64,000 nucleotides of DNA, taken from positions 19,282,001-19,346,000 of the forward strand of contig CM097884.1 in the NCBI GenBank assembly GCA_044892505.1. The letters run 5' to 3'. This stretch comes from Schmidtea nova. Its lineage: Eukaryota. Position numbers and translations under genes: made by a program. The notes beneath the pieces are model-generated. The model ran no database searches. It was not told the origin of the DNA and was given only the letters and a program-made list of their open reading frames with translations. Of this stretch, positions 4,417-58,077 are shown piece by piece. Positions within the stretch are counted from its first letter, which is position 1, and each line of letters opens with the position of its first letter.

Positions 4417-4495
4417 TATAATTTTTTATAGAACCCTAAATTTAATTCTATATTAATTTACTGCAAAAATTGTTTTATAAAATTTCTTAAAAATT

Positions 4496-4497
<2 letters not shown>

Positions 4498-4530
<33 letters not shown>
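4498..4530. repeat. (TA)n microsatellite
   Basis: Direct read. Confidence 0.95.
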
Positions 4531-4534
<4 letters not shown>

Positions 4535-4539
4535 ATTTC

Positions 4540-5700
4540 ATAAATTACCGTCTTAAACCTAATAGAATCCATAAAAATCTTATTTGCAAAACTATACACT
4601 CATACCACTCATTAATAACTACTCATATCTAATAGTATACACCAAATTGCATACATTCATAATTTCAGGTAAATTATCTCATTTCAGACATTAGCACCCA
4701 CTTATAGCATCGTACATCCAGAAAATTCATACCATATTAACTCATTCACATCCATCATTACACCTTCCATCACATTTAACCACATCTTCTACATTCAATC
4801 ACCATACTGAAAATTTTGTTATTAAACCTATAAAAAACTTATCAACTTGCAACAACTGCATCCGAGATCATCAATTCACTGTAAATCACAACATCTCTTG
4901 ATTTAAATACTTGCATATCATAACATCCATTAACATAATTTACTTATGTCACACAACATCCATTTTCACAAATTAATTTAATCCATCCAGTCATCCATCT
5001 GCATCCATATCTAATATAGCTCCGAGAATTTAACTTTTCATACATCCATTCAATTTACATAATCTCATTCATTAATATCTTACATACAGCTTGCTACACC
5101 CAGATAATCACTGTAAAAATCCCTCCATCTTGCGTTATAGTCAAGTCATTCACAACACCGGACAACATTAATAATGCTATTCGAAAAATATGACATCCTA
5201 CCAGGCAAACCAACATGATCATAACAAATAACTTCCCATCGAACTAACTTTCAACATTACAATAGTTAACATTTTTAACTCAACCACATTTTATTCATAA
5301 ATCACCTCACTCATCAAACTCCCATCAAAAATTCATTCATTCCTATTGTTAACTCGAATGAATCATTACAATGTGCACTACCTTATACACTTAATTATCC
5401 TATTTAGCAAATAATTATAAAATCCTTAAAAGTGTAATTTCCACATGAAATACTATCCATTACCCGAATGTAATTTAGGCACAAAATTTAATCCTCTGAG
5501 AAATTATCATCTATAAATTTTTTTTAATATAAAAACTTATTCATCATCTAGGTTACTACTCCATTTAATAAGTAATTGTCACAAAAATTGTAACTCAACA
5601 TAAAAATTTCCTTATCACACCGATCACATTCTAATTATTAACTATACAAACATATTTTGCATCAGAGGGTTATATCATGAATTCCGACCACGTAATTCGA
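4540..5700 (-). pseudogene. Highly decayed Cys-rich (EGF/laminin-EGF-like) coding relic
   Basis: Minus-strand fragments CDRCDK, CDGRCNDGCE, CENGCC, CKLNGC and YGC..TGW among many stops and frameshifts. Strong strand asymmetry. Confidence 0.35.
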
Positions 5701-6385
5701 TATAGGATTTTCAAAATTATTCCTTCTCTATCCCTAATGAATTTTTAAATTAAATCTCTACTTCTTCTGTATCAATCGCCCTTTTGTGAGATGTAGAAAA
5801 TTCAAGACGAATCAATTCAACAATTGGTAAATTCATTTATACATATGAGATGACTATAAGTAAATAAATCCGGACAAGTTACAGAAATATGAACCGCAAT
5901 CAACGTCTGACACTTAAATATTGCAATAGAAGTACAATATGATCTAGAGACATCCCGATTCACTGTGATGAACGATAAAACGATAAAGATTACTAATTAT
6001 TAATAAACATTCGATTCAAGGAAAAGAAAGACAAAATTATTTTACAAATTTTCATATAGATTACCAAACATATCACTTACAAGTTCTTAAAATAAAATAA
6101 ATGTTTCCCAGGTATAAAAATTCAATTCAAATTGAGGTCGACGCTGCAGATGCAATAGCACTCCTTAAAAAGTAAATATAAAAAGCATAAAAAATACCCA
6201 AATTGCTCGAACGGAAAATGAAAATAACAAACTAAAACGAGAAACTAAGAATCAATAATCATAATATGTAAATTACTTAGTGGCGTACCTAGGGGAGGGG
6301 CAGTGGGTGCGGTCCGCACTGGGCGGCACATATTTTGGGGCGGTTTTTTTTATATTTATAAAACCTTAGATTATACGGTTTAGAC

Positions 6386-6725
6386 CAGGGCTTCTTAAAC
6401 TTTTTTCATTCACGACCCCATTTATGATTGTGGATTTTTTTAGTGACCCCATATAAATATAAAATAAAAATATATAAATATTTTGTGATGATTTATTGAT
6501 GATTTATTGATTAGGTTTAAAATTTGTTTAGAAACACATTAAAATATAAAATTAAAAATTGAACATAAAATTGTAAAATTGTATTTACTATAGTTATAAA
6601 AATTATATGCTCTATTTTTCATCAAAATTTTAGTTTTGGTAATAAAACATTTAAATTTTATTTTAAATTCGTGTATTTAAATATTTTACATTTAAATCTC
6701 GCGACCTATAGTTTAAAAAGCCCTG
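6386..6725. mobile_element. hAT MITE nested in the hAT element
   Basis: 16-bp TIR CAGGGCTT(C/T)TTAAACT (15/16). 8-bp TSD GTTTAGAC/CTTTAGAC. Confidence 0.85.
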
Positions 6726-6959
6726 CTTTAGACTTTAGAACTATTAGTTCTATTATTTAAATTTAAACATATAATATAAACTGCTCAATTCTTATTACGT
6801 TCATATTAATTACTATTTATGAATTGTATTTTACTTGTGAATTAATATATAAAATATTTATAAAACCTATCGTTATAAGTTTTATAGCATTAATAACGGG
6901 GCCTATAACAGTTTTCCAAGTATTTTATAGAAAATTGTTCCCGCCCGAATCATAGAAAA

Positions 6960-8164
6960 CGGTATTCAATTAATTGTTTACATGTGATATGACCTCTGAT
7001 TTGATTTGTTTCTAAATATGTTAGCATATTTATTCTCTTGGCATGTTTACACGCAGCTTCTACTTCTATCGATTCCATAACAATTTTTGGAACTATCGAA
7101 CAGTTGTTTTTGTTTATTTCTTCCACATATCGATGGGATGTTTTACTTTCTGTCACTGGTCAATGGTTCAACGCAGTGTAGAAACTCGCTGGAGTGCTAG
7201 AGCAGAAGCAGTAACTATAGTAAAAAAACATTATTTTTACATTTTTAGCGCTTTGGAAAGATTAAAATTTGAAGAAGAAAATAGTAAGACGAGATCAGAT
7301 GCTGGAATATTACTAAATTCAATGCAATCTTTTTCTTTTCTATGTTATCTTATTTATGGGAACTCGTCCTTTTGGAAATTAATGACGCCCAAAATACTTG
7401 CAAATAAAAGAGTTAAATGTCCATTAATGCCATATGAGACTAAATTTTTTGCAAATCTGTTTCATGGAACAAAGAGATGCGCTAATACTAAACGCTATTA
7501 TAGTAGCTTAAACGATTTGTGAAGAGTTGAAGATATCGACTGAGCGTCGAGTTAGAAGGGGAAAAATATGAGTGGTGAAAATTTGCAAAACTTGGGGCTA
7601 TCCTTAGAACAAGAAGTACGAAGAGAAATGTTTTTATCTATGGATAGAATTATAAAGGAAATTAAAGAACGCTTTGATCAGTTGCATGTTCTTGTAAAAA
7701 AAATAGTCGTGTATAACACCATGCAACTTACTAAATGAAAAATTTGAATGTCAAATAAATGATTTTATTGACATTGATAAAGAACAGTTTTATATTGAAA
7801 GAAAATGGATCCAGGTTTCTTGGCTGTACCAGAACTAAAAGAATAAGTAAAATTTTTGAGAAATGCGGAGAAAGGCCCTCGTGATCTACTAAAGTTTATT
7901 CAATATTATAGATTGGAAAATTCTGTACCCAACATTATAATTTTGTTAAGAATAGTTTTAACAATTACCATCAGTGTCACTAGTTGTGAAAGGAGCTTCT
8001 CAAAATTGAAGTTGATTAAAAATTATCTTCGTTCCACAATGAGTGATTTAAGACTACAAAATCTTGCAATATCGTCCATAAAACAAGAAATTAAAAATAA
8101 TATAAATTTCGAGGGCATTATACACGATTTTTCTACTATGAAAGTTAGAAGAGTAAATTTCTAA
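6960..8164 (+). pseudogene. hAT transposase pseudogene with C-terminal dimerisation domain
   Basis: ETRWSARAEAV motif. ILLRIVLTITISVTSCERSFSKLKLIKNYLRSTMSDLRLQNLAI matches the hATC dimerisation domain. Frameshifts and stops. Confidence 0.9.
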
Positions 8165-10160
8165 ATATGGTTACATCCAAATATGTGTACAATTTGATTG
8201 TCTATCCAAAAGAAATTGAAATTTATTTATTTATAAATATAAAAAAGTTTTTAATGCAATTTCTTTGTAAATTAGGTATATGTTATGTCTCATAAGTGGC
8301 CTCCGTAAATTTCTTGTGGTCTTTAAAAAAGTATTTTGTTTTTTATAAAAGTTGTATAAATAGGTATATCAACTTATGCGGTCTCCATTTTTATTGCCTA
8401 ATTTAAATGTGGTATCCAATGATAAAAATGTTTCCCACCTATTGTGTGTTTATGTTTATTAATTTACACAAACCACCATTTCTTCCTATTTAATTGATTT
8501 AATAAAAGGGGAGCCGTCAACATTTCAACACCTAATACGATATTTAAAATAGAAACTTTTCATGTATTTGAATAATAAGGAAACTTAAGGGTTCAGAAAT
8601 TTTAGATTTTACTGTGACAACCGATGCCAAGGCCCCCTCAAAAGATTTAAAAATTCAAATATTAAATTTTTAATAAAAATGTTAAAATAATTTACAATGC
8701 AAGATAGATATTAGGTTTAGTATATAGATAGAGTTTTAACTAAATTTGTAACATACAAAATCCAGAAAGTGAAAATCATGGAGATAATAGTTAATCAGAA
8801 TAAAATAATAACTATCAAATATCCCCGAATTTACACCTTTTTACGGAGAACTAGCCCCGAATCGAGTAGTGCTACCAATTTAATAGTTAATGTTTGATAA
8901 GTATAATTGAGTATATGGATAAGAGGTGAAATTGAGATTTATTATTTATTTTTATGTGTTTTTTCAGTATTGGAATCCAAGATAGATCAGATGACGACAC
9001 AATTGACGGGAATGCACAGCAGCATGCAGCATCTGACAGCCCGCGTAACGGAGATGAAAGAGGAAAGAAGCTCCTATGTGTAGAGCTCTGAGTGATGACG
9101 GAGCGGATGGAAAAATTTCGCTCTCGGTGCCGGAAGGTGAAATCCACTTGGAGAAATGTGGAGGGCACCGAGAAGATGCAAAAGCAGATTTTAATGCTAC
9201 AGAGTCAGGCCGCTGAAGATGCGCTCCAAATGCGCGCGGTGAAGATGTCAGTGATTCTTTAATGTTAGAATGGGTCTGCGTTAGTAGTAAATGTTTTTCG
9301 ACTTCTAAACTTAACAAAGTTGTATTGAGTGCTATAATAGGTTTTATTGAGGTTAGATTTCCACGCAATAACAGCGTGAAGTTTTATTAGATGTTAACAT
9401 ATAATTCTAATTTATATTAGACTTTAATTGGAAAATACTAAGGTAAACTAAGTCCTTAAGAATTTTTTATGGATCTTAATTAAGTTTAAATTTTTATAAA
9501 ATAATGTAATAAGGAAATGATTCATAACAAAGGGGGTATGTATTTGTAATGAGTCATTTCTTTTGTCTCCAGGGCGCACACTATATTCTACTTATGAGGC
9601 TGGAATTCGATGTCGCGTCAAACGCGTTTATTGGGCAGTTTGAAAAATCCCCTATCCACTCGTAAACTCACAAAGACGTACCTGCATCCCAACAAGATGG
9701 AGTTACTCAGAGAGAGTTAACGACTCGGAAGGTCAAGAAGTAAAACAAACAAAAACAAAGATTAATTTCATTTTATTGTATGTACTAAATGTTCTCTTTC
9801 ATTGAGTATCCGTTGATAATCGAACAGCTTTATCCGACATCCTTACTTGCCATACCATAAATAACACGAACAACTGGGCAAATTCCGGTGCAGAATGTAA
9901 CTGATGAATTATCACAACAATCAAACTGACATATTTTGTATGATCAGAATGATGTCGTCTCTCCAAACAACTTTTAAATGGCGATCCGCCTCTGAATTAT
10001 ACTTTGCAACTGATGAAAAGTGTTATTCTTTTGCTTGATGCTTTTGTTAAGATTTCGAAAAGAATAATTAATTCTTCTTCGAGAAAATTTCTCTAAATTC
10101 TCAAAATTCTCAAAATTATTTAATTTTTATATATTTACAGCAAAGAATTTAAATTAAATA

Positions 10161-11289
10161 TGTTGAGGATACCTAAACAACAATTTACTAATAAATAAAT
10201 AAAATTACCTGGGGGAAAATCGTATGAGACGGCTAATGGGAACTCAGAAAATAAAACAGAAATATAAAGAAATCAGAAAGAGGAAAGAGGAATCAGACAA
10301 AAGAAATCGGACAAAAAACAAAAACAAAGGTCAGCACTAATTAATTAGTACAAAAGGAAAAGGAATTTCAAAATCTGAAAAAACAGAAATAACTACAACA
10401 ACAATATACTTATCTCGACAGCTTGTCAGAGATAACGGGAACAAAAATAAAACAGGCCGAAGCGACAAAAAGAAAAAAACAAAGTAGCCCGAGTGCCGAG
10501 CTGTCAAACGCAGCATGGGAGTTCTAAAAAGTATGGAAAATGCCAGAAGCAGAAATGAAAAAAGTAAGTGTCACGAGTGCCGAACTGTCAGGAGCAACAT
10601 GGGAGTTGCGGAGAAAAAATGGAAAATACCAGAGACAGGAGTGGCAAACGCAAAGTGCCACAAAGTGACGAGATATAAAAGGAGGAAGCACAGCAGAAGC
10701 AGTCAGAAATTTTAGGCAGAACATTTAAGAATTGTATACAGAAGTTGTGAGAGAGGAAAATTGTGGTAGACTAGATTTAGTGGAGAATTTGAAATTGACA
10801 AACAAAAAGATTGAAACCTGAACCAGAGGTAAATTAAAAGTTGACGTGGAAAATACGAAACAAGTTTGAAAAGCAAAAGGAGAAATTTGATATACCGAAA
10901 TAAAATTGTTTATTCAATCAGTTGCAGAAATAGAAATTGTGTTGCAAAGACAAAGGAAGCCAAGCAGACAAGAAGTTAAAAGGCCAAAGAATATTGAGTA
11001 AAGAATAAAGTCAAAGCTTGGAAACAATCGAAATCAATTACCTATATTTAATCCAAGTCAGTGGTTAGTAGTTGTTGTATTCTAGACATTATACTTCACG
11101 AAGTGTCTTAATAAGCTCGTATAATTGTCAAAAGAGGTATTGAATTGAGCGTGATATTTTGAATCGTGTAAATCATTGTAATAGTCAAATAAAGTTTGTT
11201 TTATTGAAAGTGTTATTGGGGGTCAATTAAATGCATGCTTTGGAGTCAGATAGTTGATAGCATTTCACCAAAAACCCCAGAACTCAACA
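10161..11289 (+). mobile_element. Solo LTR
   Basis: TGTTGAG...CTCAACA 7-bp terminal inverted repeat. 4-bp TSD AATA/AATA. Internal duplicated GAGTGCCGA(G/A)CTGTCA..CATGGGAGTT. TATA-like GATATAAAAGG near 10672. AATAAA near 11188. Confidence 0.8.
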
Positions 11290-11424
11290 AATATATAAAC
11301 TGGAATAAATTATAAAATATAATAAATTTAATAAAACTTTGAATAATATTGAAATTTTTGAATTAAAATTAAATTATTTAGAATTTATATTAAAATTTAA
11401 CATTAAATTAATAATTTGTTTTAA

Positions 11425-11666
11425 CCCTTTCGCGGACGCACTTTTTTAGTTGAGGTTCCCAGAACGTCACTTGCCACATCTTTTACACAATCTAATCCAA
11501 ACACAATCTAATTTTATTACCAAAAAAAATAATATGACTTTTCACTGTGACACTAAATGCACACAATTCATATGAACTCATATATTTTGTGGCGTGTATA
11601 GCCGTCATGATTTTATTAGCAAAATAATTTTTGACGTGTATACACTTTGCAATGTCCGCGAAAGGG
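11425..11666. mobile_element. piggyBac-type MITE
   Basis: Perfect 13-bp TIR CCCTTTCGCGGAC. TTAA TSDs at 11421-24 and 11667-70. Confidence 0.92.
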
Positions 11667-12009
11667 TTAAATTAAATTAAAAAAATTTTATTTTGAAAAT
11701 TTTAATTAAATTAAACTTAGAAATTTGTTTTAAGGTATCAATTTAAAATATATAGCGAAAATTTGTATAAATACCAGAGCTTTTTTGGCAATAAAACAAC
11801 CACAAACTCATTTTTTGAGATAATCTCGAAAAATGCAAACATTTTTTGGATTATTTTGATAATTGACTCTTACATTCGAGCAGTCGAGGGAACCAAATTC
11901 TAAAAGGGAAAAATTTCCATCAGTAGTCAATAATTACCTCACTTGAATTCTTGGAGGACTCAGATACCGTCTGTTGGGGTTATTAAAATTTACAGAAAAT
12001 AAATATTAA

Positions 12010-13440
12010 ATAGCACAAATCAATAAAAATACAAAAATTGGAAAAATAATAATTAATGTGAAAACATTAATTAAAAATTTATAAAAAATTAAAATAAAGT
12101 TTGAGCGGGGGAAATTGGTATGGGAGGATGCCTAATGATGAGACGAATTCGAATATGGGTATATAAAAATAAAAAGGGGTCCCCAGAAAGAAATATTTAG
12201 AAAATACAAATTACTCTATACAAATACTCTATACAAATTACTCTATACAAATACAAATTACTCTATAGGAAACCCGAGCTAATGGGAAACCCGAACTAGT
12301 AGGAAACCCGAGCGATATTGGAAACCCGAGGCATCAGCAATTCGATTAATTAAAACTAATGGAAAAACTGAAGGGTGCCCCGGGGAACAAAGCCGCAAAC
12401 CCATTTAGCGGCAACTTACAAATTAATTTTATAATTGACAGATCCATTAAAGCGTGACAGGAAAAATCAATAAAACACTATAAAAGGCAAGGCAAAACTG
12501 CAGTACTTGCCAGTTGGTCGAAGAAAAATCCAAGAGTTAAACGAGGAATCACCAATTGAAAGGAGGCTGAAACGTTAACAAGTGGTAAAGTGTTGATCGT
12601 TCAATTCCTTACGTACCAGAGTGCAGATAATATTAGAACTTTCTGTGAATTATATTGTTGTGGTATTGTTAAAAATAAAGTTTACTCTATTGGGTCTTAT
12701 TTGTTTTGTGAACGAAAGAACACCGGAGTCAGATACCAACCGACTTCTCAGTAATAACCCAACACGTCCAAATGTATAACAATATGATTTTGGCTGATTG
12801 CATGTTGGATCATACCCCAATGTGAAANNNNNNNNNNNNNNNNNNNNNNNNNNNNNNNNNNNNNNNNNNNNNNNNNNNNNNNNNNNNNNNNNNNNNNNNN
12901 NNNNNNNNNNNNNNNNNNNNNNNNNNNNNNNNNNNNNNNNNNNNNNNNNNNNNNNNNNNNNNNNNNNNNNNNNNNNNNNNNNNNNNNNNNNNNNNNNNTC
13001 AAATAAGCAGAAAATAAAATTAAAAGGCACAAAAGCTATGTGCAAATCAATAAAAATACAAAATTGGAAAAATTAAAATTAAAATGCAAACATTAATTAA
13101 AATTTACGAAAATTCTAAATAAAGATTTAGTGAAAGAAACGGGTATGTGACAGGCCAATTGAGGAGACGAATTCAAATATGATTATAAAAAATTAAAAAG
13201 GGGCCACAGAATATTAAGAAAAGACAAACTAATTAAAAATAGATAAATTACACATGGAAAATCCAAGTTAATGGGAAACCCGAACTAATTGGAAACTTGA
13301 GCTAATAGGAAACCCAAGTGTTGTAGGAAACCCGGGCATCAATAAACTCATGTAGTTAGATAAATAAATTGAATAATTGAAGGATGCCTCGGGAATAAGA
13401 CACAAATCAACATAGCGGCAAACTCCAAATTTATTTGTAC
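12010..13440. repeat. Two ~400-bp diverged direct repeats (~12020-12420, ~13030-13440), each with GGAAACCCGA x4 arrays, flanking a gapped unique segment
   Basis: Shared AAAATACAAAA-TTGGAAAAAT, GAGACGAATTC, GGAAACCC(G/A)A every ~20 nt, and TAGCGGCAA. The first copy also has AAATTACTCTATAC repeats. Confidence 0.7.
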
Positions 13441-45841: not shown

Positions 45842-46269
45842 TTAACACTGGAACACCGGAAGTCGTCATTACTCCTCGAACGCCGAAAGTGGTTATCCAT
45901 GACCACGTAATTAATTATACTATAAATAGGGGCTCAAATAGAGACTTAGAAGCAGTTTGTGCACTTTTTAATGAATTAAACGTCTAGGAGATACTTTGCG
46001 CATACAAAAATCATGTATTAGTAGCTAAGCTCCCCTCCTCCATCCTCATACTAGAAAATATATGCATGAATATCCCTGATTTTTTCCTTAACCCATTCAA
46101 TGCCGGAAGGGGATAGGGCCAGCTTTCACCTTTCAGGTGAAAGTCGATGAAAAGAAATCGAATAGCGGTGTCAGTTTTTGTCTAAAACGCTTTCTTAAAT
46201 AGATATGGCAAAAGAGAGAATGTTCAACGACCCAAAACAGTTGCTGGCAGAGAATATTCTTGAAAAATA

Positions 46270-47095
46270 ACTATTTTATTTACACTTGTGGGATACAATC
46301 GTTTCATTGAAATGTTTCTATTTGATTGTGAAGTTCATGTTTGCCACAAAACGGTTTGTTGCAGTTGTCACACGCGTTGTACGTTTTGTTGTATCAGTTT
46401 TTTCGTCAACATTTGAAACGCTTTTGCTTTGCCTTCACTTGTTGGATCGTCGTTTCCGAGACTCTTGAACGGGCTTTCAAAGAGCTCTTGCTAGTTCCAA
46501 CATGAATCGTTTTCTGGGTATGTGACCAACGACTTCTTAGTATATAACATGTGCATTAATAAGAGCCTCTTCAAGTAAATCGTAGAACACACAAACTGGC
46601 CATCGTCTTGAGGCAGCTTTCGTACTATATACACGTAACATCTGGTCGAGGCAGTCTCCTCCAGTCTTGGTTTTGTTGTAGGTTAAAACAATCTCTAGTT
46701 TCTTCTTGTTTGAATCTGGACAAATGCGTGGACTGCAATGGAGCGTAGACATAAGGAACACATTATTTCTTGCTTTGCACTTGTAATTAACTAAGCGGAT
46801 GTCACCTGATTTGTGAAACATTGAATTATGTAGCTCTAAATTCATATTCTTAAAATCCGTGGGCAAGCTTCGCGAAGTCTTCCTCACTGTACCAAGATAA
46901 GTTATTTTGTGTTCCAATAAATGACTTGCTAATGGAGCAGAAGAAAAGAAATTGTCGGCTGTAACATGATAGCCACAATTTTTAACTGGTTCCACTAACA
47001 ATTTCACAACATGTTGTCCAACTGTTTCCCCTGACGGGCAAACAGTTGCCCGTTCCACTGATATTTTGAATGTGTTTAAGTAACTGAAGGTTGAA
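46270..47095 (-). pseudogene. piggyBac transposase, 3' half
   Basis: HVTADNFFSS, TYLGTVRK, YNKTKTGGDCLDQM and RRWPVCVF motifs. Cys-rich tail at ~46280-46400. Confidence 0.92.
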
Positions 47096-47418
47096 TGTTG
47101 CGGATTATGTTTGTGGTATTATTATGTTTGTTTGTTTGTTTGTAAAAATTTTAATTTTTTTTTAAATTTTAAAATTTGTAAATTTTATGTTGTGTTAAAA
47201 TTTTATTAAATTAAATTTTATTTTTAAAATAATACGTATGTTGTTCTATGTATAATGTTTGTTTTTAATTAAATTTTAAAAGATTTTTGTGTAATAAAAT
47301 AAAATAAATTTTTAAATTTTTAAATTAAAATTTTGATATGGTATTAAGATGATTTTTATTGATTAATTTGTTTAAATTTTAGCATATTTTCTATTTTATT
47401 ATTGATTGTCCTGATTGC

Positions 47419-47459
47419 CTCGACTGAAGAAGATTGTTATACAATCGAAATATATCGCG
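47419..47459 (+). ncRNA. Minimal type-I hammerhead with canonical core (family C)
   Basis: CTCGA CTGAAGA A GATTG TTATA CAATC GAAA TA T A TCGCG: perfect 5-bp stem II, 3+1-bp stem I, ATAT palindrome. Confidence 0.7.
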
Positions 47460-47495
47460 TTTATGTTGAATTTACTGAGTTGGCGTTTTTCTATA

Positions 47496-47496
<1 letters not shown>

Positions 47497-47573
<77 letters not shown>
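47497..47573. repeat. (ATT)n microsatellite
   Basis: Direct read. Similar tracts at ~26750, ~35285 and ~48490. Confidence 0.95.
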
Positions 47574-47575
<2 letters not shown>

Positions 47576-47590
47576 GATTATTTGGATGTA

Positions 47591-48054
47591 TTATATAGAA
47601 TAAGAATTAATAATTACAGCAGTAATTTCATCCTCATCGTCGGAAATATTAATTACTTCATTTTTAATAAATTTACAAGGAATTGATTCCTCGTTTAAAA
47701 TTTTTCGTTTATTGTTGTTGCTAGAAAAATTATTATTATTATTTATATTATTATTTCTATTGTTGTTTGAGAAATTATTGCTGTTGTTGGAAATATTATT
47801 ATTATTATTTCTATTGTTGTTATGTATATTATTTTGAATATTAATTTTATTATTATTAAAAATAGTTTTTTTAGAACCAATATACTGAGTTAAATGATAT
47901 CGGTGTTTATCATAAAAGTCAGTATATGGAAGGGTTTCGTTGATTTTACAAACAGGGCAAATGAGGAAGGTGACTCTACTATATTTATACGAATAGTACT
48001 TTTCCATAATTTGATGGCAATCATTATGTAAAGTACTATTACAGTATAAAGGGT
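47591..48054 (-). CDS. Exon of an orphan Cys/His-containing, Asn-rich protein in the Polinton remnant
   Basis: Acceptor TTTAAAG at ~48055. Open frame SNYPLYCNSTLHNDCHQIMEKYYSYKYSRVTFLICPVCK..DKHRYH, then poly-Asn and an acidic tail. Confidence 0.5.
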
Positions 48055-48489
48055 AATTTGAACCTTTAAAATAAAAAATAATGATAAAATAATTAGAAAA
48101 TAATAGAAAAAATTATTATAAAATAGTTATAAAATAATTATAAAATAATTATAAAATAATTGAAAAAAAATTGAAAAATAAACATAAGTTTAACTTATTA
48201 CGGAAGAGTTTAATCTATTTTATCTGTTTAAACTATTACATAATAGGATAATCAAATGTCAATACAAAAATAAAGTTTTTGATTGAAAAGATTACGTCAC
48301 TGTGTGAAGTGCTATTAACTAAATATGATAATTTATATTTAATGATTATGTCACCGTATCTAATATGATAACGTGTTTTAATTGACATTAAAAAGTATTG
48401 AAGGGTAGGTATTAATATCAACTTTTAAGAGACTATATAATTATTATAACTAAATTATTATCATTAAGTTAATATTATTTATTAAAAAC

Positions 48490-48563
<74 letters not shown>

Positions 48564-48899
48564 TCTAATAAAAAACTATAATAATCAAAAAACTAATATT
48601 ATTTTCAATAAGATATTAAATATTTTTTATTATATGTTTTATTAATACTTTATAATATTATTGAAAATTAATACCATTACGTTTCTTTTATAAAATATAA
48701 TATTACTTTTATTATTTTATTGAATGTAATACTAATATAAAAAATGATATCAGTTATTTGAAAATATTATTGAATATATTCATAGTTAATTGAGAATATT
48801 ATTTAATTAAGGGAAAATATTAATATTAAAATATCATAAAAACTACTATAAAACTATTATAAAACATTATAAAAAATTAAAAATCTTACATTTTGTTCT

Positions 48900-49370
48900 A
48901 CCATTCGTCACGGAATTTATCGATGCATTATTAAAAAAGTTTCCATCATTTGAAGCGTTATTAAAATTCGTCGTGGATACATTTGGGGCACTAAAATTAA
49001 AATCCATCGCCGATACATTTTAGGCATTTAAATGTTCTATAAAACATGAAATAAAATAATAAATATACAAATATAATTTTACCGTTTCTATAAAAACCAT
49101 AATTGTTTTCGTTTCCCGATACATTTCTAAAAACATTTGGGACATTAAATTCCATTTTGAACATTTTGAACATTTAAATGTTCTATAAAACATGAAATAA
49201 AATATTAAATATACAAATATAATTTTACCGTTTCTAAAAAAACCATTATCGTTATCGTTTCCGGATACATTTGTAATAATCCGCATATTAATTCTTGACA
49301 TTCCTAAAATAAATAACGTTTAAAAATAATAATAAAATAAAAAATAAATCCTTACCATTGAATCCATTGA
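48900..49370 (-). pseudogene. Spliced Asn-rich accessory gene relic with a duplicated exon+intron unit
   Basis: GT-AG introns at 49304-49355, 49183-49228 and 49037-49082. The last two are near-identical, from a ~146-bp tandem duplication. Small indels break the frame. Confidence 0.5.
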
Positions 49371-49655
49371 TGTTTGTATTTTTAACATTATTGATATTGT
49401 TGTACATATTTAATTAATGATTATAAGATGAATAAGAAATTTTGGGTTATAGTAAAAAGTGACTAAAATATTGAAAACATATCTTTATATAAGATATATT
49501 GCATAATATTAATTGAACCAATGAAAATCGTTTATGAGAAGAAAAGATTCTCTCGCACACATACAACATGGATTTACCAGCTGTATGTGTATTATCATAC
49601 ACGTATGTTATACATACATGTTCACTCATTATAATTTCCATTAATACACACATGA

Positions 49656-50096
49656 TTACTTATTCACGATGACCGCAGAGGTCATGCATTTCAATTGCAA
49701 ATTTTGTCTTTCAAAGCAATTAATTAAGCATATAATTAATTTTTTAAATAATCTAAAGCCAAAACACCAAACACCCTTTATATGATCTCGATATGGACAT
49801 GAAACTTTGTCAGGAAAAGTTTCAACTTCCTTAACATTATACTTAATTAATCTTAGGGAGGTGAAATATCTTTTTAAAACAGCAAGTTTATCTTGATCAG
49901 TGACATAGAAAATTGCACCAACATCTTCAATTTCTTTCAAAATACAAGTTGGACAAAAGTGATCTTCACCTTCATACCATTCTAATCTATCAGGTTCACC
50001 AATTCCAGCTCAAAAAGGAACATCATTATATATCCAATATCTTGGCTGAAAAATATTATTAACATTCATAATACATAATTCTTTAATAATTATCAT
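49656..50096 (-). pseudogene. Polinton accessory ORF (IIKEL...LEWYEG...FYV..DKL...CPYRDH...C) with one in-frame TGA
   Basis: Single frame MIIIKELCIM...VPF*AGIGEPDRLEWYEGEDHFCPTCILKEIEDVGAIFYVTDQDKLAVLKRYF. The motif pattern recalls small nuclease-like proteins of invertebrate Polintons (from memory, unverified). Confidence 0.5.
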
Positions 50097-50395
50097 AATA
50101 TTATAATTATTATAATATTAATTATTATAATATTAATTTTACCTTTGACAACTTTAGCTATGACATCAAGTAAATCATCAATTACATAATTGGGAAACGA
50201 TTGTAAAATACTCATTCTTCTAATGCTTGGAGCCTTGAGTAATGCATTGAAAATTGGAAAACTGCGATGATTTTTAGATTTTTTACTTGCAGTTGCCTTT
50301 GGCATCTTTGGTGTATCGGGTTTTGAATTGTGTGAAATTAGATTCATTTTGGGAAAATTTTCGGTGATTAATTTTTTCGGAGGTGTGAAACTCAT
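50093..50395 (-). CDS. Polinton PW-like small basic protein, 3' end eroded by an AT repeat
   Basis: FPIFNALLKAPSIRRMSILQSFPNYVIDDLLDVIAKVVKGKINI resembles the L..L.kA....R..Il......I..l......vlkG.i pattern. Located directly after the ATPase. Confidence 0.55.
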   Translation of the reverse strand: MSFTPPKKLITENFPKMNLISHNSKPDTPKMPKATASKKSKNHRSFPIFNALLKAPSIRRMSILQSFPNYVIDDLLDVIAKVVKGKINIIIINIIIIIIL

Positions 50396-50481
50396 TTTAG
50401 ATGGAATTAATGTTTCACGATTTTTTTAATAACTTTTCTAAGTTTTGATAGCTTTGGATGTTTGGCTCTTCGAACATGAAT

Positions 50482-51108
50482 TTAACTTTGTTTATAAACC
50501 ATTGATCCTTTGTTAAAAATATCAGTTCTAACACGTAATTCATCACTATATTGTTGAGTAAAATCGAGAAAAATATATCCATGTGGGATTTTAGTTGCAT
50601 CTTGAAATGCATTGATCAAGAAATTCCGATTATTAGGGTAAGCCTGTCTTGCAAGAAAATTAATAACGGTAGCATCTCTAGGATTTTTAAAAATAACTAG
50701 ATATTGAACATTCAAATTTCGAGTTCGATGACTTCCACCCTGATGAAATAAATTCTGAGTAATAAAAATAACTGTAACTTCTTTATGTCTAGCAATTTTT
50801 GTGAATAAATTATTGAAATCCTTCTCTTTATTTGTTTCTTGATACAAATCATCAATAATAATTACATCACCACTTCGTAATCTAGACGACCAGTTTTTAT
50901 CGAATCCCTTTATTATTGTCATTTTAATCTTACAAAATTGATCTTGAGTCATTCCATATTCATCATCAGCTCCCCTATGCCAATAAATTTTGTTAAATTT
51001 TGATTTGAATAATTTTGATTGTAATAATTTACAAACAAATAAAGTTTTTCCACTTCCACTTGGACCGACAATTTGATAAACTGCATCATTTCTTAACTCC
51101 ATTTTCAA
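50482..51108 (-). CDS. Polinton/Maverick A32-like (FtsK-HerA) DNA-packaging ATPase, intact 208 aa
   Basis: Walker A GPSGSGKT, Walker B IIIDD, FTKIARH, VIFITQNLF, R..NLNVQYLVIFKNPRD and DAT..PHGYIFLDF...DELRVRTDIF are diagnostic of Polinton ATPases. Confidence 0.92.
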   Translation of the reverse strand: MKMELRNDAVYQIVGPSGSGKTLFVCKLLQSKLFKSKFNKIYWHRGADDEYGMTQDQFCKIKMTIIKGFDKNWSSRLRSGDVIIIDDLYQETNKEKDFNNLFTKIARHKEVTVIFITQNLFHQGGSHRTRNLNVQYLVIFKNPRDATVINFLARQAYPNNRNFLINAFQDATKIPHGYIFLDFTQQYSDELRVRTDIFNKGSMVYKQS

Positions 51109-51254
51109 AATATTAAGAGTTTATGGATATTGTTTATATTTGTTTTAATTAATTGTTATACTTTTACGAAAATTATTTAAAAAATAATCAGTCTTATAAT
51201 GTTAAGGATTGATTTTTATGTTGAAACTTTTATTAATGCGTTCTTTTGTTTTTA

Positions 51255-51520
51255 GAAAAACTGATGTGCGTTCTGCTTGAAAAAAAGGAGGATTTGTACC
51301 CGAAACTTATGCGCGAATTGGACTCCTTTCTTATAAAATATTGGCATTAACCGGAATTGATCTCAACAAGGTGTTGCTCGACCATCATCATAATATAGAA
51401 GAAGAAGAATGCAGCGCCAGTATTATATGTACCTATAGATGCGAAAGTTGCGTCAATAGGACTCAGAAATACCACAGATGGTTACTCCAAGAGGAGTTAA
51501 GAAACTTTTTAGGACAATAA
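51255..51520 (+). pseudogene. Orphan small ORF with one frameshift, divergent from the ATPase
   Basis: EDLYPKLMRELDSFLIKYW (frameshift) TGIDLNKVLLDHHHNIEEEECSASIICTYRCESCVNRTQKYHRWLLQEELRNFLGQ*. GC is higher than in the flanks. Confidence 0.45.
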
Positions 51521-51971
51521 ATATTTTATAATTAAAATGTCTTTTTATTGTGTGTTTTATAAAGTATTTATTTTCTTAAAACGTACCGAGTTATGAAAAA
51601 TGTTTTGTAGTTAAAATTAATTTTTATAAAATGTTGATGCTGAATATTTATTGAAAATAATAATATAAAATAATTNNNNNNNNNNNNNNNNNNNNNNNNN
51701 NNNNNNNNNNNNNNNNNNNNNNNNNNNNNNNNNNNNNNNNNNNNNNNNNNNNNNNNNNNNNNNNNNNNNNNNNNNNNNNNNNNNNNNNNNNNNNNNNNNN
51801 NNNNNNNNNNNNNNNNNNNNNNNNNNNNNNNNNNNNNNNNNNNNNNNNTTGCGATAGATATGTAAATAACTTACAATATATATAGAAAGAGATTGCAGTA
51901 GATAATCATCAACATGTATACAAAGTCAATTATTAATACATATTCAATCGATTAGCAAGACATGTGCAAGA

Positions 51972-52010
51972 ATCTGATTGGCTGCACACAGACGATGATG
52001 AGTATAAATA
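51972..52010 (+). promoter_or_regulatory. CCAAT box + TATA box upstream of ORF 52039
   Basis: CTGATTGGCTGC at ~51974 and GTATAAATAAG at ~52002, about 35 nt before the ATG. Confidence 0.55.
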
Positions 52011-52038
52011 AGAAAACAAAAATATTATTGTTCATAAA

Positions 52039-52446
52039 ATGCAAAATATTTTCAGCAAATCGAGTCCAATTAAAATGAAACCAGTTTGGAACGATAACAA
52101 ATCAACTCAAAACAAATTTGATTTGCGACCGGTTCAGATGTTTCACGATTACCAAATGTTTTTCTTGGTAAACGAAATCTCTTTCAAGGTCCCAAATCCG
52201 GTAAAGCTGTTGACTTCGCAATATTCCAACTTAATTGGTCAGATTTATAAAGAAGATGTTGTTGCAATCAATAAAGTGTTGACGAAAATCAACAAGAAAT
52301 TATCTTCATCAACAACAGGAACACCGAATTTCATAATGCATTTCAATCAGTTGAATATACGGATAATGAAAATTGGTTTATTGATATATCCATCCAAGGA
52401 TATAAAATCGATCCAAAAGAATCAATGTGTCCAATTTGGAAGATAA
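52039..52446 (+). CDS. Orphan 135-aa Polinton accessory protein
   Basis: Intact ORF with a compact Pol II promoter, next to the Polinton terminus. No family recognised. Confidence 0.6.
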   Translation: MQNIFSKSSPIKMKPVWNDNKSTQNKFDLRPVQMFHDYQMFFLVNEISFKVPNPVKLLTSQYSNLIGQIYKEDVVAINKVLTKINKKLSSSTTGTPNFIMHFNQLNIRIMKIGLLIYPSKDIKSIQKNQCVQFGR

Positions 52447-52484
52447 AAAACGCAAGAATTGCATAGATGTAATAACATTGTTGT

Positions 52485-52543
<59 letters not shown>

Positions 52544-52659
52544 TTATTAATAAATGTTGATAAATTCTCATTTAGTGTTTTTGAAAAAAAGTTTTGTAAA
52601 ATTTTCTGTTTTTTATAAAAGTTTTAAGTTTTTGGAAAATTTTTTGAATTTTTGAAAAA

Positions 52660-52892
52660 CTTTAGAATTTGACCTTAAAAATTGACCTTAGCTTGACCTT
52701 GACCCCATGGTGACCTTGTCTTTAAAGTGTCCTCAAAAAAAATTTTTTGATGACTCATCGTCTGTGTAAAAAAAATTGGGGGGTCGCACAAAGAAAAAAG
52801 TACCCCCGAGGAGTCACTTGATTTTGATTTGATGCACACATGCGATGACGTCATATGTCTTTGTTCTCCCGTCTACACTTCCTCCTACTACT
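52660..52892 (-). repeat. Polinton terminal inverted-repeat region with AGGTCA array, AP-1-like and CRE-like motifs
   Basis: Plus strand shows TGACCT(T) x5 at 52670-52716, TGATGACTCATC at ~52748, GATGACGTCAT at ~52844 and terminal CTACTACT at 52885-52892. Confidence 0.65.
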
Positions 52893-53672
52893 GATTAAAT
52901 TTGGAACGATTTTTTTAGGCAGAAGTTGTTCATCAGCCGTTAGAATTGGATGTGGTTGATATACTTGAATGGAGTTCGCCACGAACTCATTAAAAAGATC
53001 TCTAATTGGTGCAAAGAGATCTTCCGCCACTCTCGCTCTTCTCGTAACTTTCTCATCAAAACGAAGATTGCGCATGATTGAACAGAATTTGTCTCTTGGC
53101 ATTGTATTGCTGAAGAAAGGACAGCCGAATTCTTGTGAGAAGAGTTCGTGTACTTCAGCTCGTCACAAATGAAGTGCTCCCCTCATATATGCCAAACCAA
53201 TGAATGCCTCTATATCATCAAGTGTAACCAGGAAAGCATCATTGACTTCCTTTCCCTTTTCGTTCGTTGACTCCAGTACTATTTTCAGCATCTTGTCCGT
53301 AAATAATAATCGCCATGCAGATAGGGGTGAATCAACCTTCTTTGCAAATGGTTTCACGCCCGGAGTTTTAGAGAACATATTACGATTAGGAACTCTTCCG
53401 ACACTGTTCCCGTTTTGTAATTGTGTTCACACGGTTCCGTCTGGACTCGTATATTGATTGGGAACTTCTTCATCAGTGTTGGAGGATTCAGAGGTACTAC
53501 AATCTTCATCTGACTCCAAATCAGAGGAATCCGTAGAACTAGAAATATTACCAGAGACGGAACTCAATTCACAATCGTTTCCTTCTTGAAAAATGTATTC
53601 CTCTTCCGACTCCTGGGGATCGCAATTACATAAACGACGAATTGTAAGCTGCACAGTTGCTCGATGAGTCAT
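52893..53672 (-). pseudogene. piggyBac transposase, 5' half
   Basis: Acidic N-terminus, SAWRLLFTDKML, FIGLAYMRG, MPRDKF..I..NLRFD and TADEQLLP (first catalytic Asp), then KNRSKFNQ right up to the Polinton end. Confidence 0.92.
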
Positions 53673-54363
53673 AACCAGTCCTCGAAAAGAAAATGTAAGA
53701 AACATAAAATAAGATCAAATACAGAAGGAAGTAAGACGAAATGCAAAGCTTTTATAAAATAGGCATATCAAAATTCCAAGAAACCATAAATAAGTTCTAT
53801 CATTGAAACTATCGGATTGAAAAAAGAGGGAAATTATTCACGTTAAAGTCGAAATGAAATCAATTGCTTATTTTAAAAATATGAAACAAAATAATATTAT
53901 AGAATAATTGACCAACAACGTCGACCGTAATGTAAATAATTTTACACAATGATGACAGTCTCAAAAGTTACAAAAGATTTTTGTTTGTGGTTTGCGACTT
54001 GTGAATAACAATTCGAATCTACTAAAAACGTGACTTTCAAATAAAAAACTATCTTGAAAAAAAATTTCTAAGAAATACCTACTTTTGTATGGTAAGTGCT
54101 TCAGAGTATATCGTTCTTTGAAAAATCGGCAAGCATCAACGAAAATAAACAAAATATCCTCAATACATTCATATTTGGTCACGGCTGACCACTTTCGACG
54201 TTGTAGTGTAAACTTTTTTTTACAATTCAATACAATTAATACTTACAACTGTATATAATAGAAATTTAGGTGGGTAAAATTGGGGTTTTTAGTCACATCA
54301 GCTTAAATAATACAACTTTTAAAATTGAAAATGTCACAAATGACCACTTCCGGCGTTCTAGTG

Positions 54364-54720
54364 TTAATGATTGATGAGAACACTCTGTATGAGGTGTCAA
54401 GAATTGCTATAGGTCTCTATGATGAGACGTCGTGACTCGTATCTCTTTTTCCTGGTTTCAAGAGTAATATGGTTTTGTAAGTCTTCCAGCTTGTAGGGCT
54501 TTTTTGTTTCTTAAAATATTATTGTATATTGCGATAAGCAAAGAGAAATTCGAGTTTATTGTTGTCCAATCTTTGTAGGTGATTTGATCCGATCCAGGTG
54601 TCAATGTCGTAGAAAATTTCTGTTATTTCTTCATACTAGATAATATTATTTAAATTTGTTTTAATAGTAATGTTTTCTCTGATTCTTTGTTCGAGTTCCG
54701 AAAGATCTTTTTTTTGGTTG
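54364..54720 (-). pseudogene. Non-LTR retrotransposon RT fragment (RLE clade: R2/NeSL/Utopia-like), cut by the piggyBac TTAA
   Basis: TPGSDQITYKDWTTINSNFSLLIAIYNNIL (frameshift) PTSWKTYKTILLLKPGKRDTSHDVSS*RPIAILDTSYRVFSSIIN corresponds to RT domains 0-1. Confidence 0.8.
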
Positions 54721-57206
54721 TGAAATTTTTTGTTATATTATTAGTTTCTGGTAGTACGCGTGGTCGTCCAGACTCTCGCATTATTTGTACGGAAAAATTA
54801 TATAAGAGAAGAATATAAAACGCATCTGTTAAAAAAAAATTATTAAATTATTAAATACCTACAGTTATTTTCTTTCAAGGTTCAAATTAATGATACGAAT
54901 GATTTTCCTCCGAGTGTTGTTAAAAATGTAATTGCATGAACTTCTAAAAATGTGAGTTGGAAATATGCTCGTTTTACTAACGATTAATGACCTTTAATGA
55001 TATAAATGACATTAACTTACTGACTTGAGTGCCTCCTTTTATGCTAAATTAGGCGCTCAGGCAGCCAATCAAAATCGATTTAGCCTTTTATTGATTAGAC
55101 CTCAGATTTTCCTATTATTATATATTATTATTTTATTTGTTAATTGATTATCTTCTTCTGATTATTATCTTCTTCTGATTATTATTTCTTATTTCTTTTA
55201 TTAATTTGATTTAATTTTTATTCTTTTAGTCTTATTTCTTGTTCTGCTTAGAATTTTACATTTCCATCTTTGTTTTTGTTTTAATTAATTCTTTTTTGAT
55301 TGTTACTATTTTCTTAATCGTTTATGCTTTTATAATTGTTTTTATTTACTATTCTTGTTTCTCATTTAATTTCCTAATATTATTAATTATTTGCCTAATA
55401 ATTAGTATGTGCTAACCCAACAGATGTTTGTTTTAGCAATTATCAAGTAACGCTAATATAATTTGACATAGAATCAGAATTTGAATGCCAGAAGCCAATA
55501 TACACTTCGTCCGAGTCGCCAGAGGTCTATATAAATATCTTTAATGTACAACTAACACCATTGGAGGCCAAATTGTAAAACATGATTCATTATATGAATG
55601 AAAAATAATATACTTATATTAAAAATATAAATATTAAAAACACAACTTACATTTTTATCACAAATAGCGATCAATATAATATGACTGATCTATAAATTTT
55701 ACAGACCGATCGATATTGGATTAAATAAAATCTGATTCTTCTAAATATGGTATATTTCAGAGGGGAATAAAAAGGACAGATTGGAATAAGGGAGTAGGGA
55801 TGGGAAATTGTTCTTCTATATGGAAAGTCCTTAATGGAAACTTATTTGCGAAATAAATGTTCTTCCATAAACAGGCAAGGATAATGAACTAAAAAATTAT
55901 TTTGAATTGAGTCAAAATTATTCAATTATTAAACAGAACTTTCAATTGACATGATTGTGAATATTAAACAAAGACCCGGCTATGTCCGGTCTGTATTTGT
56001 ATCAGTTATCGCGCACGTGTTTATTGTGGGATTTTTAAAAATTGTGTTTGTTTAAATGTTTAGAAATTTTTAATTATTTTTTAATATTAAACTAAATATT
56101 TTATTTATTAAATTATTTATTTATTTTTAATATGTGACTAATTATTTTATTTTAATTGACTTAATTTCATTTTAATTAATTTTTATTTAATTATTTATCT
56201 TTTAATTATTTTTTAAATTAGACTAAATATTTTATTTATTTATTAATTTTTATTAATCATCAGTAATTCTTTTAAATTTTTACATACAGATTATCAACAA
56301 CTATTTATTGTTGAAATGTAGAATTTAATCGGTATCCGAAACCTGTTTTACTTGAATTATTACTGGGAACCAAATTTCCAAAAGATCTGGTATGTCAAAA
56401 AGCATTGATCAATTTTTAATAAATTGTAATTTATATCCCTTTGCCATATAGATATTGCGAGAGAAAAACAACAAAATATAAAATAAGATTAAAAAACTTC
56501 ATTAGAAATATATTTTATCAAAAATAAAATAAGTTTAAATAATCATCACATGTTAAAAACAAAGAATTTCTACATCCGTTGTTATTAAAATCTTTATACA
56601 CAAAAGCGAATAATATTGCGATAAACGCTTACTGCCGATTAGAGCCTGGTAGAGAATGAAGATTTACTTTTATTTTCTCTAGTAAATTCTTCCAAGCATA
56701 ATTTCATATCATCTTGGAGCTAAAAAGAATTAAATAAGAATAATTTTTTAAAATTTATATTATTGTCGAGAGGTTTATGTATTAATAGTTAAATAATAAT
56801 AATACATATTTGTGAAGCTCCTTTTCCAATTAAATTCTAAAAATAATTCTAAAAATGGTAGGAGGCACATATTTGTATGTTAGACAAAAGACAAAGATTC
56901 AGTTTCTAAAGTTTGAATGAAATTTAAGTGGTCGCAATATCTAGGCAGTGTCCAAACATTATTATGTTAAAAATCCACAAGCAGGCTACATATACTTGTC
57001 ATCCGAATTATCATTAATTTATTAATGAAAATGGATTTGAATTAAATTGTTTGGGTTGCTAGTTATTTAGATAAAAATAAACACTCTGATTATATTGTTA
57101 TCATGGATCGTAAAAAGCCTGGTTATTTTTCAATAAAAATATTTTGCTAACAACTTTTTCTGAGAATTTACAGGGTTACTAATCATTATAAAGAAATCAT
57201 ACATAC

Positions 57207-58077
57207 ATGACTGAAGAATTTAACGCAGAATCAATCCAACAAACAAGATCAAGCCGAAAATTAAGGACCAGTATTATTAAAGCCACCGTTGAACTTTATA
57301 ACGTTCATAAAATAGCAAGGATGCTAAAAATATCTATAATATCTGTATACAAGTGGTTAGGTGTACTAAACGACATTTCTAACGGACAAAAAAGTTTGGA
57401 TAGTTATTTTAAAGGACCAGGCCCGAAACACAAGGGAATAACTGATAAAAACTTGAAGGTTGTGCAATGTTTTTACAAAATGACTGCGTTTACTCAGAGT
57501 GATGTCGTTGAGACTCTTCGAAATATTAATGTCGATGTTTCACAATCATCAGTATCATTCAACTGTAAAAAATGGAACTTACAAGAAAACGATTGGGACG
57601 ACTGAGAGATAAATACATATCGCTAGCAGATTTAGGAATAAGAAAACATTTTACTTATATATGTCAGAAATTGCCAAATATTATATTTAGATGAAACGGG
57701 ATTTAACCTGTTTATTTCAAGAAAATATGGATATTAGTAAACAACGTCTCGGCAAATCTTATAATGCCAGCAAATCAAGGAAGGAACGTTGGTTTGCTAA
57801 CTTTGATATCAAACGAAAAAATGTCCAAGCTAAAATTATTGAAGGGGCTTATAATTCTGATTCCTTTATAATATTTTTAGAAGAATGTTGTAATATTAAT
57901 GTTTTTAGAACTTTGAAATATGTAATAATTTACAATGTTCGTTTACATAAATTTTCAGCAGTTCTCGAATGGTTAAATAGAAAAAATATTTTCTATGAAT
58001 ATTTACCCCTAAATACTCGACAACTCAATCCGATGAAGTTTTTTCTGCACATAATAGTCGTCCAAGTTATGGAATAA
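57207..58077 (+). pseudogene. Tc1/IS630-like (DD34E) transposase pseudogene
   Basis: HTH with SVYKW. YLDETGFNL at ~57685, IIYNVRLHK (degenerate DN..FH) and YLPLNTRQLNPMK (degenerate LPPYSPQLNPIE). Confidence 0.85.

What the first reader, a model, noticed from the sequence alone, without database searches (positions are those of the whole stretch)
47590..52892. Truncated Polinton/Maverick with an intact packaging ATPase and orphan accessory genes, nested inside a piggyBac transposase
Seen: a complete 208-aa A32-like ATPase followed by a PW-like ORF. An AGTAGTAGG terminus at 52892 falls inside the piggyBac frame just after DEQLLP-KNRSKFNQ, and piggyBac resumes near 47095, about 20 codons later. 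No pPolB, integrase, capsid or protease is visible, and the 173-N gap is too small to hide them. Established: Polintons have AG termini, long TIRs and a capsid module that includes this ATPase. Inference: this is a deletion derivative of an endogenous viral-like element, possibly a non-autonomous lineage that keeps only the ATPase plus accessory genes. The ATPase is intact while neighbours are disabled, which could mean selection or recent activity.
Basis: partly seen in the sequence, partly recalled or inferred. Interest (0 to 1): 0.75.

Follow-up and report, generated by a model that had tools for sequence, protein, structure and literature searches.

The report
Broken Polinton fossil inside dead piggyBac
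This is a mostly ordinary broken copy of an abundant virus-like Polinton element sitting inside a dead piggyBac transposon; its packaging gene likely survived by chance, and the one odd feature is a predicted intron-split gene that may be the start of its DNA polymerase.

Summary
The anatomy is real; the suggested meaning is not supported. A piggyBac (45846-54363, TTAA-flanked) is interrupted at 52892 by an AGTAGT Polinton end and resumes near 47100, about 16 codons on. The ATPase (206 aa, not 208) is a Polinton packaging ATPase: 23 of its 31 closest loci have an integrase downstream.

The 'orphans' are conserved Polinton genes, all broken. A junction at 50092-50130 joins two genes lying 4.4-5.3 kb apart in relatives, removing integrase, both capsid genes and protease. 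Contigs of four runs run on at both junction edges, so most family copies appear to lack this deletion. The second end and target duplication are gone, so this copy cannot move as it is. An unbroken ATPase is expected by chance (P 0.2-0.3).

Its Cys/His domain precedes the Polinton polymerase N-terminus in 6 of 30 hits, and a relative's polymerase has similar 5' introns. It is probably the polymerase's 5' end (about 55%). The scan noted an intron-bearing Maverick before, in another genome.

The parts
45846..45870 (.). piggyBac terminal inverted repeat, TTAA at 45842-45845
   Evidence: 22 of 25 bases match the other end (by eye); TTAA read
46330..47100 (-). piggyBac transposase, 3' part, with a Cys-rich tail in another frame; broken
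   Evidence: Pfam DDE_Tnp_1_7 E 1.8e-22; 6x67_C residues 320-485; tail read
47100..47590 (.). Left junction zone: 15% G+C with a (TAT)30 run; no AGTAGT end, no target duplication; whether it belongs to the Polinton is untested
   Evidence: not covered
47591..49407 (-). Predicted five-exon gene (49407-49356, 49303-49229, 49182-49083, 49036-48890, 48063-47591), four phase-1 GT-AG introns of 52, 46, 46 and 826 nt; exon 3 out of frame, stop in exon 4; last exon holds a Cys/His domain; likely the 5' end of pPolB
   Evidence: exons read one by one; intron G+C 0.11-0.13 against exon 0.23-0.32; homologs; multi-copy cover of exons 1-4
49760..50092 (-). Remnant of the about 154-aa gene that follows the protease in relatives; N-terminus cut off, stop at 50012-50010, short internal gap
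   Evidence: tblastn E 8e-20 and 6e-17 from L003 and L011; Maelstrom is a lead only (score 0.85)
50093..50129 (.). Internal deletion junction with A/T tandem filler; 4.4-5.3 kb (integrase, minor capsid, PW-position gene, major capsid, protease) lies here in relatives
   Evidence: loose ends at 50092 and 50130
50130..50290 (-). First half of the gene after the ATPase (PZ by position), cut by the deletion
   Evidence: tblastn hits in 21 loci, 38-64% identity, ending at 50129-50150; naming
50482..51102 (-). Polinton A32/FtsK-like packaging ATPase, 206 aa, open frame
51676..51848 (.). Assembly gap of 173 N; family contigs cover both sides
52039..52463 (+). Conserved accessory gene of unknown function, head to head with the ATPase as in L003, L013 and L017; frameshift near 52302
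   Evidence: hits from L003, L009, L013, L017, L018 (E 1e-4 to 5e-10) and weakly L028
52560..52892 (-). Polinton terminal region ending in AGTAGT (52892-52887), with four TGACCT motifs; no second copy in the window
   Evidence: end motif as in PMC8097293 section 7
52893..53705 (-). piggyBac transposase, 5' part; two in-frame stops and a frameshift just after DEQLL
   Evidence: Pfam E 5e-10 and 3e-6; 6x67_C residues 198-272; pieces in one frame
54339..54363 (.). piggyBac terminal inverted repeat, TTAA at 54364-54367

Best explanation
A Polinton/Maverick fragment with one AGTAGT end lies inside a piggyBac transposase gene, and it is most likely a dead fossil copy that inserted there and was then likely cut down by two deletions, with its ATPase frame likely still open by chance. 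Steps: (1) shown: the piggyBac has both ends and TTAA sites, and the fragment interrupts its reading frame. (2) Inferred: a member of a high-copy Polinton family inserted by the family's own integrase. (3) Shown by comparison: an internal junction removes integrase, capsid genes and protease. (4) Inferred: a second deletion took the far end, the target duplication, about 16 piggyBac codons and probably most of pPolB. (5) Inferred: every remaining gene is decaying neutrally, and the copy can neither move nor package DNA by itself.
For: Gene order of relatives: ATPase, PZ-position gene, integrase, minor capsid, PW-position gene, major capsid, protease, 154-aa gene. An integrase follows in 23 of the 31 closest loci; the other 8 end within about 400 bp past the PZ-position gene or sooner. 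Many of the 31 are near-duplicates. The integrase is rve plus chromo, the polymerase hits phrog_1907 at E 5e-20 for L018, and the major capsid model matches PBCV-1 and mavirus capsids at E about 1e-14. The window ATPase sits in a 28-row clade (99/97) with 14 integrase-linked rows. Homology ends coincide with the contigs' loose ends. Lesion test P 0.17-0.30; the ATPase has 5 odd residues in 139 conserved columns, a count reached by 13 of 73 homologs. 96% of vertebrate Maverick loci are degraded (PMC8097293).
Against: No genome was held, so copies were not counted and no sister insertion was read. The four runs are contigs from one study, of unrecorded kind, and hold only 0.36-0.42 of the stretch's words. 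No listed piece bridges the internal junction (32 of 26,928 pieces shown), so the junction is not independently confirmed. One X1 contig (depth 152) has a joint 50132 to 50103 inside the filler and may be a sister with the same deletion (table 5c). Neither outer junction was laid. The tree holds only ATPases found by searching with this one, so it is not a test against other families.
Confidence: 0.82

Rival explanations
1. The internal deletion predates the insertion: this is one copy of a non-autonomous Polinton lineage mobilised in trans, keeping the ATPase.
For: One X1 contig has a joint inside the junction filler (table 5c). polB-less Polintons that stayed mobile are reported in butterflies (10.1101/2025.02.07.637071, passages). 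The family is abundant (3,900-13,908 records laid per run), so helpers may exist.
Against: Loose ends at both junction edges, at 50130 in three runs and at 50092 in two. None of the 31 closest loci shows the junction. The deletion cuts both flanking genes. An ATPase has no use without a capsid unless supplied in trans. Only one end is present.
Confidence: 0.1
2. One or more junctions are assembly mis-joins between copies of a very abundant family.
For: The window has seven N gaps. Thousands of family contigs lie on the stretch, the junction is A/T-rich, and no listed contig bridges it.
Against: The two piggyBac halves are colinear, on one strand, between matching ends with TTAA, and miss only about 16 codons. 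The AGTAGT end falls exactly at the break. Contigs stop matching at both edges of the filler, so the filler does not look native to either flank.
Confidence: 0.06
3. The ATPase has been kept by host selection (domestication, or interference with incoming Polinton packaging).
For: It is the only unbroken gene of five.
Against: P 0.17-0.30 by chance. Its end branch (0.095) is like that of P0002 and longer than that of P0001. Nothing here shows expression.
Confidence: 0.02

Closest known systems
Polintons/Mavericks of animals (PMC8097293, passages and section 7; PMC4028283, part 1 of 4)
   Same: (AGT)2 end; A32-like ATPase followed by a PZ-position gene; relatives carry rve integrase, double jelly-roll capsid, protease and pPolB; most genomic copies are degraded.
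   Different: This copy has one end, no target duplication and no integrase or capsid genes. In relatives the ATPase and integrase modules are on one strand, as described for Xenopus tropicalis. Intact vertebrate elements are reported intronless, whereas this family has a gene with four predicted introns.
Metagenome Polintons L003, L011, L014, L018 (70-75% ATPase identity)
   Same: Same gene set around the ATPase, including the two accessory genes. L018 has three short phase-1 intron candidates leading in frame into pPolB.
   Different: In L003 and L018 pPolB points towards the capsid genes; the window's spliced gene points away from them. A TBP-like gene sits between the accessory gene and the ATPase in L003, L009, L013, L017 and L018 but is not found in the window.
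Nematode Mavericks with intron-bearing cargo (10.1101/2022.07.12.499685, passages)
   Same: An intron-containing gene inside a Maverick.
   Different: There the core genes are called intronless and the intron-bearing genes are host cargo (proteases, kinases). Here the domain's relatives run into pPolB.
polB-less mobile Polintons of Pieris (10.1101/2025.02.07.637071, passages) and C. elegans Polinton remnants (10.1101/2024.01.15.575659, passages)
   Same: Partial Polintons of a few kb, some with one end.
   Different: The Pieris elements keep both inverted repeats and show amplification; this copy shows neither.

Membership tests
Polinton/Maverick | A32/FtsK-like packaging ATPase of Polinton type | tested here: met
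   Pox_A32 above cut-off; clade with 14 integrase-linked rows
Polinton/Maverick | 5'-(AGT)2 or (AG)3 end motif | tested here: met
   AGTAGT at 52892, at the host-element break; one end only
Polinton/Maverick | Terminal inverted repeats at both ends | tested here: not met
   52560-52892 has no second copy in the window; read as lost by deletion
Polinton/Maverick | 5-8 bp target-site duplication | tested here: not met
   The 6 bases outside the end do not recur at 47000-47300; a 5-base match at 47103 is not followed by an end motif
Polinton/Maverick | rve integrase | tested here: not met
   Absent from the window; present in 23 of 31 closest loci
Polinton/Maverick | Protein-primed family B polymerase | tested here: inconclusive
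   No catalytic or terminal-protein region in the window; the spliced gene's domain precedes pPolB N-termini in 6 of 30 hits
Polinton/Maverick | Major and minor capsid proteins, protease | tested here: not met
   Absent from the window; major capsid in 8 of 31 closest loci, fold shown for L011. The window therefore holds a fragment derived from a Polinton, not an intact member
Non-autonomous Polinton family | Both ends kept | tested here: not met
Non-autonomous Polinton family | Many copies sharing the same internal deletion | tested here: inconclusive
   Loose ends argue against, one contig hints for; no genome to count in
piggyBac | DDD transposase of the piggyBac fold | tested here: met
piggyBac | TTAA target duplication with terminal inverted repeats | tested here: met
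   TTAA at 45842 and 54364; repeats 22 of 25 alike

The most novel reading that the evidence does not exclude
This abundant Polinton lineage expresses its protein-primed DNA polymerase from a spliced transcript: short phase-1 host-type introns, frame-keeping exons that duplicate in tandem, and an unclassified Cys/His domain ahead of the terminal-protein region. With the TBP-like gene of its relatives, that would mark an animal polintovirus clade tied to the host's splicing and transcription machinery, against the reported intronless core genes.
Probability: 0.5. Interest if true: 0.5.

Novelty: new member of a known kind. Interest (0 to 1): 0.28.

Why it matters
The locus itself matters little: degraded, nested Polinton pieces are the common state. 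It does point to an abundant, fairly young Polinton family in this organism. If the spliced gene is the polymerase's 5' end, ORF-based annotation truncates pPolB in this clade, and splice joints give a direct RNA test of when these elements are transcribed in the nucleus. The Cys/His domain matched no Pfam family and models with high confidence, so it is a tractable unknown part of Polinton replication proteins.

Tried and rejected
Whole-genome search: no genome held, so no copy count, no target-duplication survey and no dN/dS.

Collections with no result: viral contigs gave no ATPase relative with the single protein or the alignment and no match to the terminal 21-mer; genome contigs none; phages none. 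The domain alignment had no stretch conserved enough to scan with. No RNA holder was listed.

A by-eye resemblance of 47490-47370 to the pPolB terminal-protein region was rejected: the profile search gave no hit there and pairwise E-values were 0.36 or worse. Searches for long proteins bearing the Cys/His domain found none (only 9 and 2 candidates, weak). Fold searches of the domain model gave best Z 2.7 among 48,161 chains and no viral match at E 0.001. Atlas searches gave unnamed eukaryotic clusters and a Maelstrom lead at 0.85 for the 154-aa gene, and nothing usable for the accessory gene. L003 pPolB had no hit among solved structures and no polymerase hit in Pfam or PHROGs. Four of the 30 domain hits (P0156, P0160, P0169, P0171) did not hit the window back. 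The scan's notes held nothing by sequence or by place.

Introns in animal Polinton core genes were not found in the listings of searches. The founding 2006-2007 papers and Repbase entries were not seen and may describe them. No supplements were read.
Full report
OBSERVATION. A piggyBac spans 45846-54363, with TTAA at both ends and terminal repeats alike at 22 of 25 bases. Its transposase is broken by two stops and a frameshift. It is interrupted at 52892, where AGTAGT reads inward; this is the commonest Maverick end motif (PMC8097293 section 7), and a chance hit within 30 nt of the break has P about 0.006. The halves align to residues 198-272 and 320-485 of 6x67_C; counting the window codons in between leaves about 16 lost. 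No second end and no 6-bp duplication is found.

THE ATPASE IS A POLINTON GENE. It has 482 relatives among 944 candidates, the best 87% identical. Of 111 confirmed metagenome matches, 80 loci were returned. Among the 31 closest (52-75% identity; many near-duplicates), 23 have an integrase downstream and 8 reach the major capsid gene; the 8 without an integrase end too early. The order is ATPase, PZ-position gene, integrase, minor capsid, PW-position gene, major capsid, protease, a 154-aa gene (3 loci), then a convergent polymerase (L003, L018). Identities were checked: rve integrase, DNA polymerase for L018 (L003 gave only an endonuclease VII hit), weak adenovirus protease hit at E 0.024, and a capsid model matching PBCV-1 and mavirus capsids. 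The minor capsid, PZ and PW labels rest on position only. In a tree of 69 rows the window ATPase lies in a 28-row clade with 14 integrase-linked rows; all rows came from searches with this ATPase.

THE 'ORPHANS' ARE BROKEN POLINTON GENES. The gene after the ATPase matches 21 loci but stops halfway, at 50129-50150. About 40 bp further, after an A/T tandem filler, begins a homolog of the 154-aa gene, lacking its first 16 or so residues and carrying a stop. In L003, L011 and L014 these two points lie 5.3, 4.4 and 4.5 kb apart (from coordinates). The plus-strand gene at 52039-52463 matches five loci and is frameshifted near 52302. So the missing module was removed at 50092-50130, not hidden in the N gap. 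The gap could still hide the TBP-like gene that relatives carry at that place.

COPIES IN THE ORGANISM. Four runs of one study hold 0.36-0.42 of the words. On 48570-52485, 13,908, 4,579, 4,215 and 3,900 contigs were laid at 85% or better, so the family is abundant and diverse; depth is not a copy number. Among the 24 loose-end rows shown of 2,790, 20, 12 and 11 contigs run on at 50130 and 5 and 5 at 50092, the same places where homology ends. I infer that most copies lack the deletion. Against this: no listed piece bridges the junction (32 of 26,928 shown), and one X1 contig of depth 152 has a joint within the filler, which may be a sister copy or an A/T artefact. Several listed pieces differ from the window by 1.5-2.3% (3 of 202, 4 of 172, 3 of 149), others by 7-15%.

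IS THE ATPASE SELECTED? Four or five point lesions fall in 1,766 bp of neighbouring coding sequence; none in 618 bp has P 0.17-0.30. At 2% divergence the modelled chance of staying open is 0.14-0.49, depending on the assumed indel share. The protein has 5 odd residues in 139 conserved columns, a count reached by 13 of 73 homologs. Selection on this copy is not needed. Family-wide purifying selection on active elements is reported (PMC8097293) and explains the conservation.

A MISSED GENE. From 49407 to 47591 lies a predicted five-exon gene with four GT-AG introns, all phase 1, of 0.11-0.13 G+C against 0.23-0.32 in exons. Exon 3 is out of frame and exon 4 has a stop; at that stop nearly all laid depth reads differently, so it seems private to this copy (table 3). 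A joint going back by one intron-plus-exon unit, with an exon part of whole codons, is seen in all four runs (tables 5, 5c). Single contigs over exon 1 have depth 575-739 in X2 and X4, against 6-16 for the listed low-depth pieces, and overlapping high-depth contigs link it to the end of the 154-aa gene; it is therefore likely part of this subfamily. The predicted last splice would supply the first Cys of a motif that relatives begin with. The domain has 30 hits; 26 hit the window back and 6 continue into the N-terminal region of L003/L018 pPolB. I read 24 of the 30. Independently, three of the four minus-strand short-intron candidates in the 12.9 kb of L018 cluster just upstream of its pPolB, with exons of 117 and 84 nt leading in frame into it. 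Against: no single locus shows domain, introns and full polymerase together; the window's gene points the other way from pPolB in L003 and L018; it ends in a stop with no terminal-protein region after it; most hits are short; and no RNA confirms any splice. I put 'the 5' end of pPolB' at about 55%.

MECHANISM. Shown: nesting, one end, the internal junction, the lesions. Inferred: insertion of a family member into the piggyBac, an internal deletion with filler, a second deletion removing the far end with about 16 piggyBac codons, then neutral decay. Whether the internal deletion came before or after insertion is not settled. The host looks like an A+T-rich animal from its transposon content and short introns (inference; not identified).

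COMPARISON. This works like, and derives from, an animal Polinton, but fails the tests for an intact member (no integrase, capsids, second end or duplication). Degraded copies are the rule: 96% in vertebrates, remnants in C. elegans, incomplete copies in Anolis. Mobile polB-less Polintons are reported but keep both repeats. Core genes are described as intronless; introns are known in nematode cargo genes and from introners in dinoflagellate elements. The pPolB N-terminus holds terminal-protein and vOTU domains (PMC11071308); the passages seen name no Cys/His domain before them. Seen: passages only for all papers, except PMC4028283 (part 1 of 4) and PMC8097293 (passages and section 7); PMC8502044, 10.1101/2023.08.22.554363 and PMC6431247 passages added only general features. 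An earlier AI note (e1-7469918) reports an intron-bearing Maverick in another genome; I did not check it and count it as no support.

VERDICT. A real but ordinary Polinton fossil; interest 0.28, carried mostly by the possible spliced polymerase gene.

Noticed in passing
L003 2420-2869; also L001, L002, L004, L009, L013, L017, L018, L028: A TBP-like gene (Pfam TBP E 5e-18 for L003, two stretches) lies near the ATPase in 9 of the 31 closest loci. One paper search with that term listed nothing on it.
   Followed up: partly
L003 222-719 (-); L011 952-1263: Accessory genes of relatives: a ubiquitin-conjugating E2 (Pfam UQ_con E 2e-12) and an ORF with a phosphatase-like HCxxGxSRS motif (motif recalled, not scanned).
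   Followed up: partly
L018 12938-12392 (-): Three short phase-1 intron candidates with whole-codon exons lead in frame into pPolB.
   Followed up: yes
window 50142-50081 (-): A splice-like donor and acceptor flank the internal deletion junction and would join the two cut genes in frame; both sites are native coding sequence, so probably chance.
   Followed up: partly
window 51281-51517 (+): A 79-codon Cys-rich frame between the ATPase and the gap has no homolog in the 80 loci but is covered by family contigs; possibly a true orphan remnant.
   Followed up: partly
window 19568-20445, 22369-23385, 30589-32247, 35533-35808, 57192-58077: Other decayed transposons by eye: mariner-like, Mutator-like, hAT-like, a GIY-YIG (Penelope-like) piece with a second copy near 25973-26265, and Tc1-like. 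Labels are recalled, not scanned.
   Followed up: no
window 46088-46112: A TTAA followed by a CCC-starting sequence resembling a piggyBac-type end lies inside the piggyBac's 3' region; possibly a second small nested element.
   Followed up: no
L011 2-400: The contig begins with a bacterial-looking membrane protein fragment that runs into Polinton sequence; likely a chimeric assembly.
   Followed up: no
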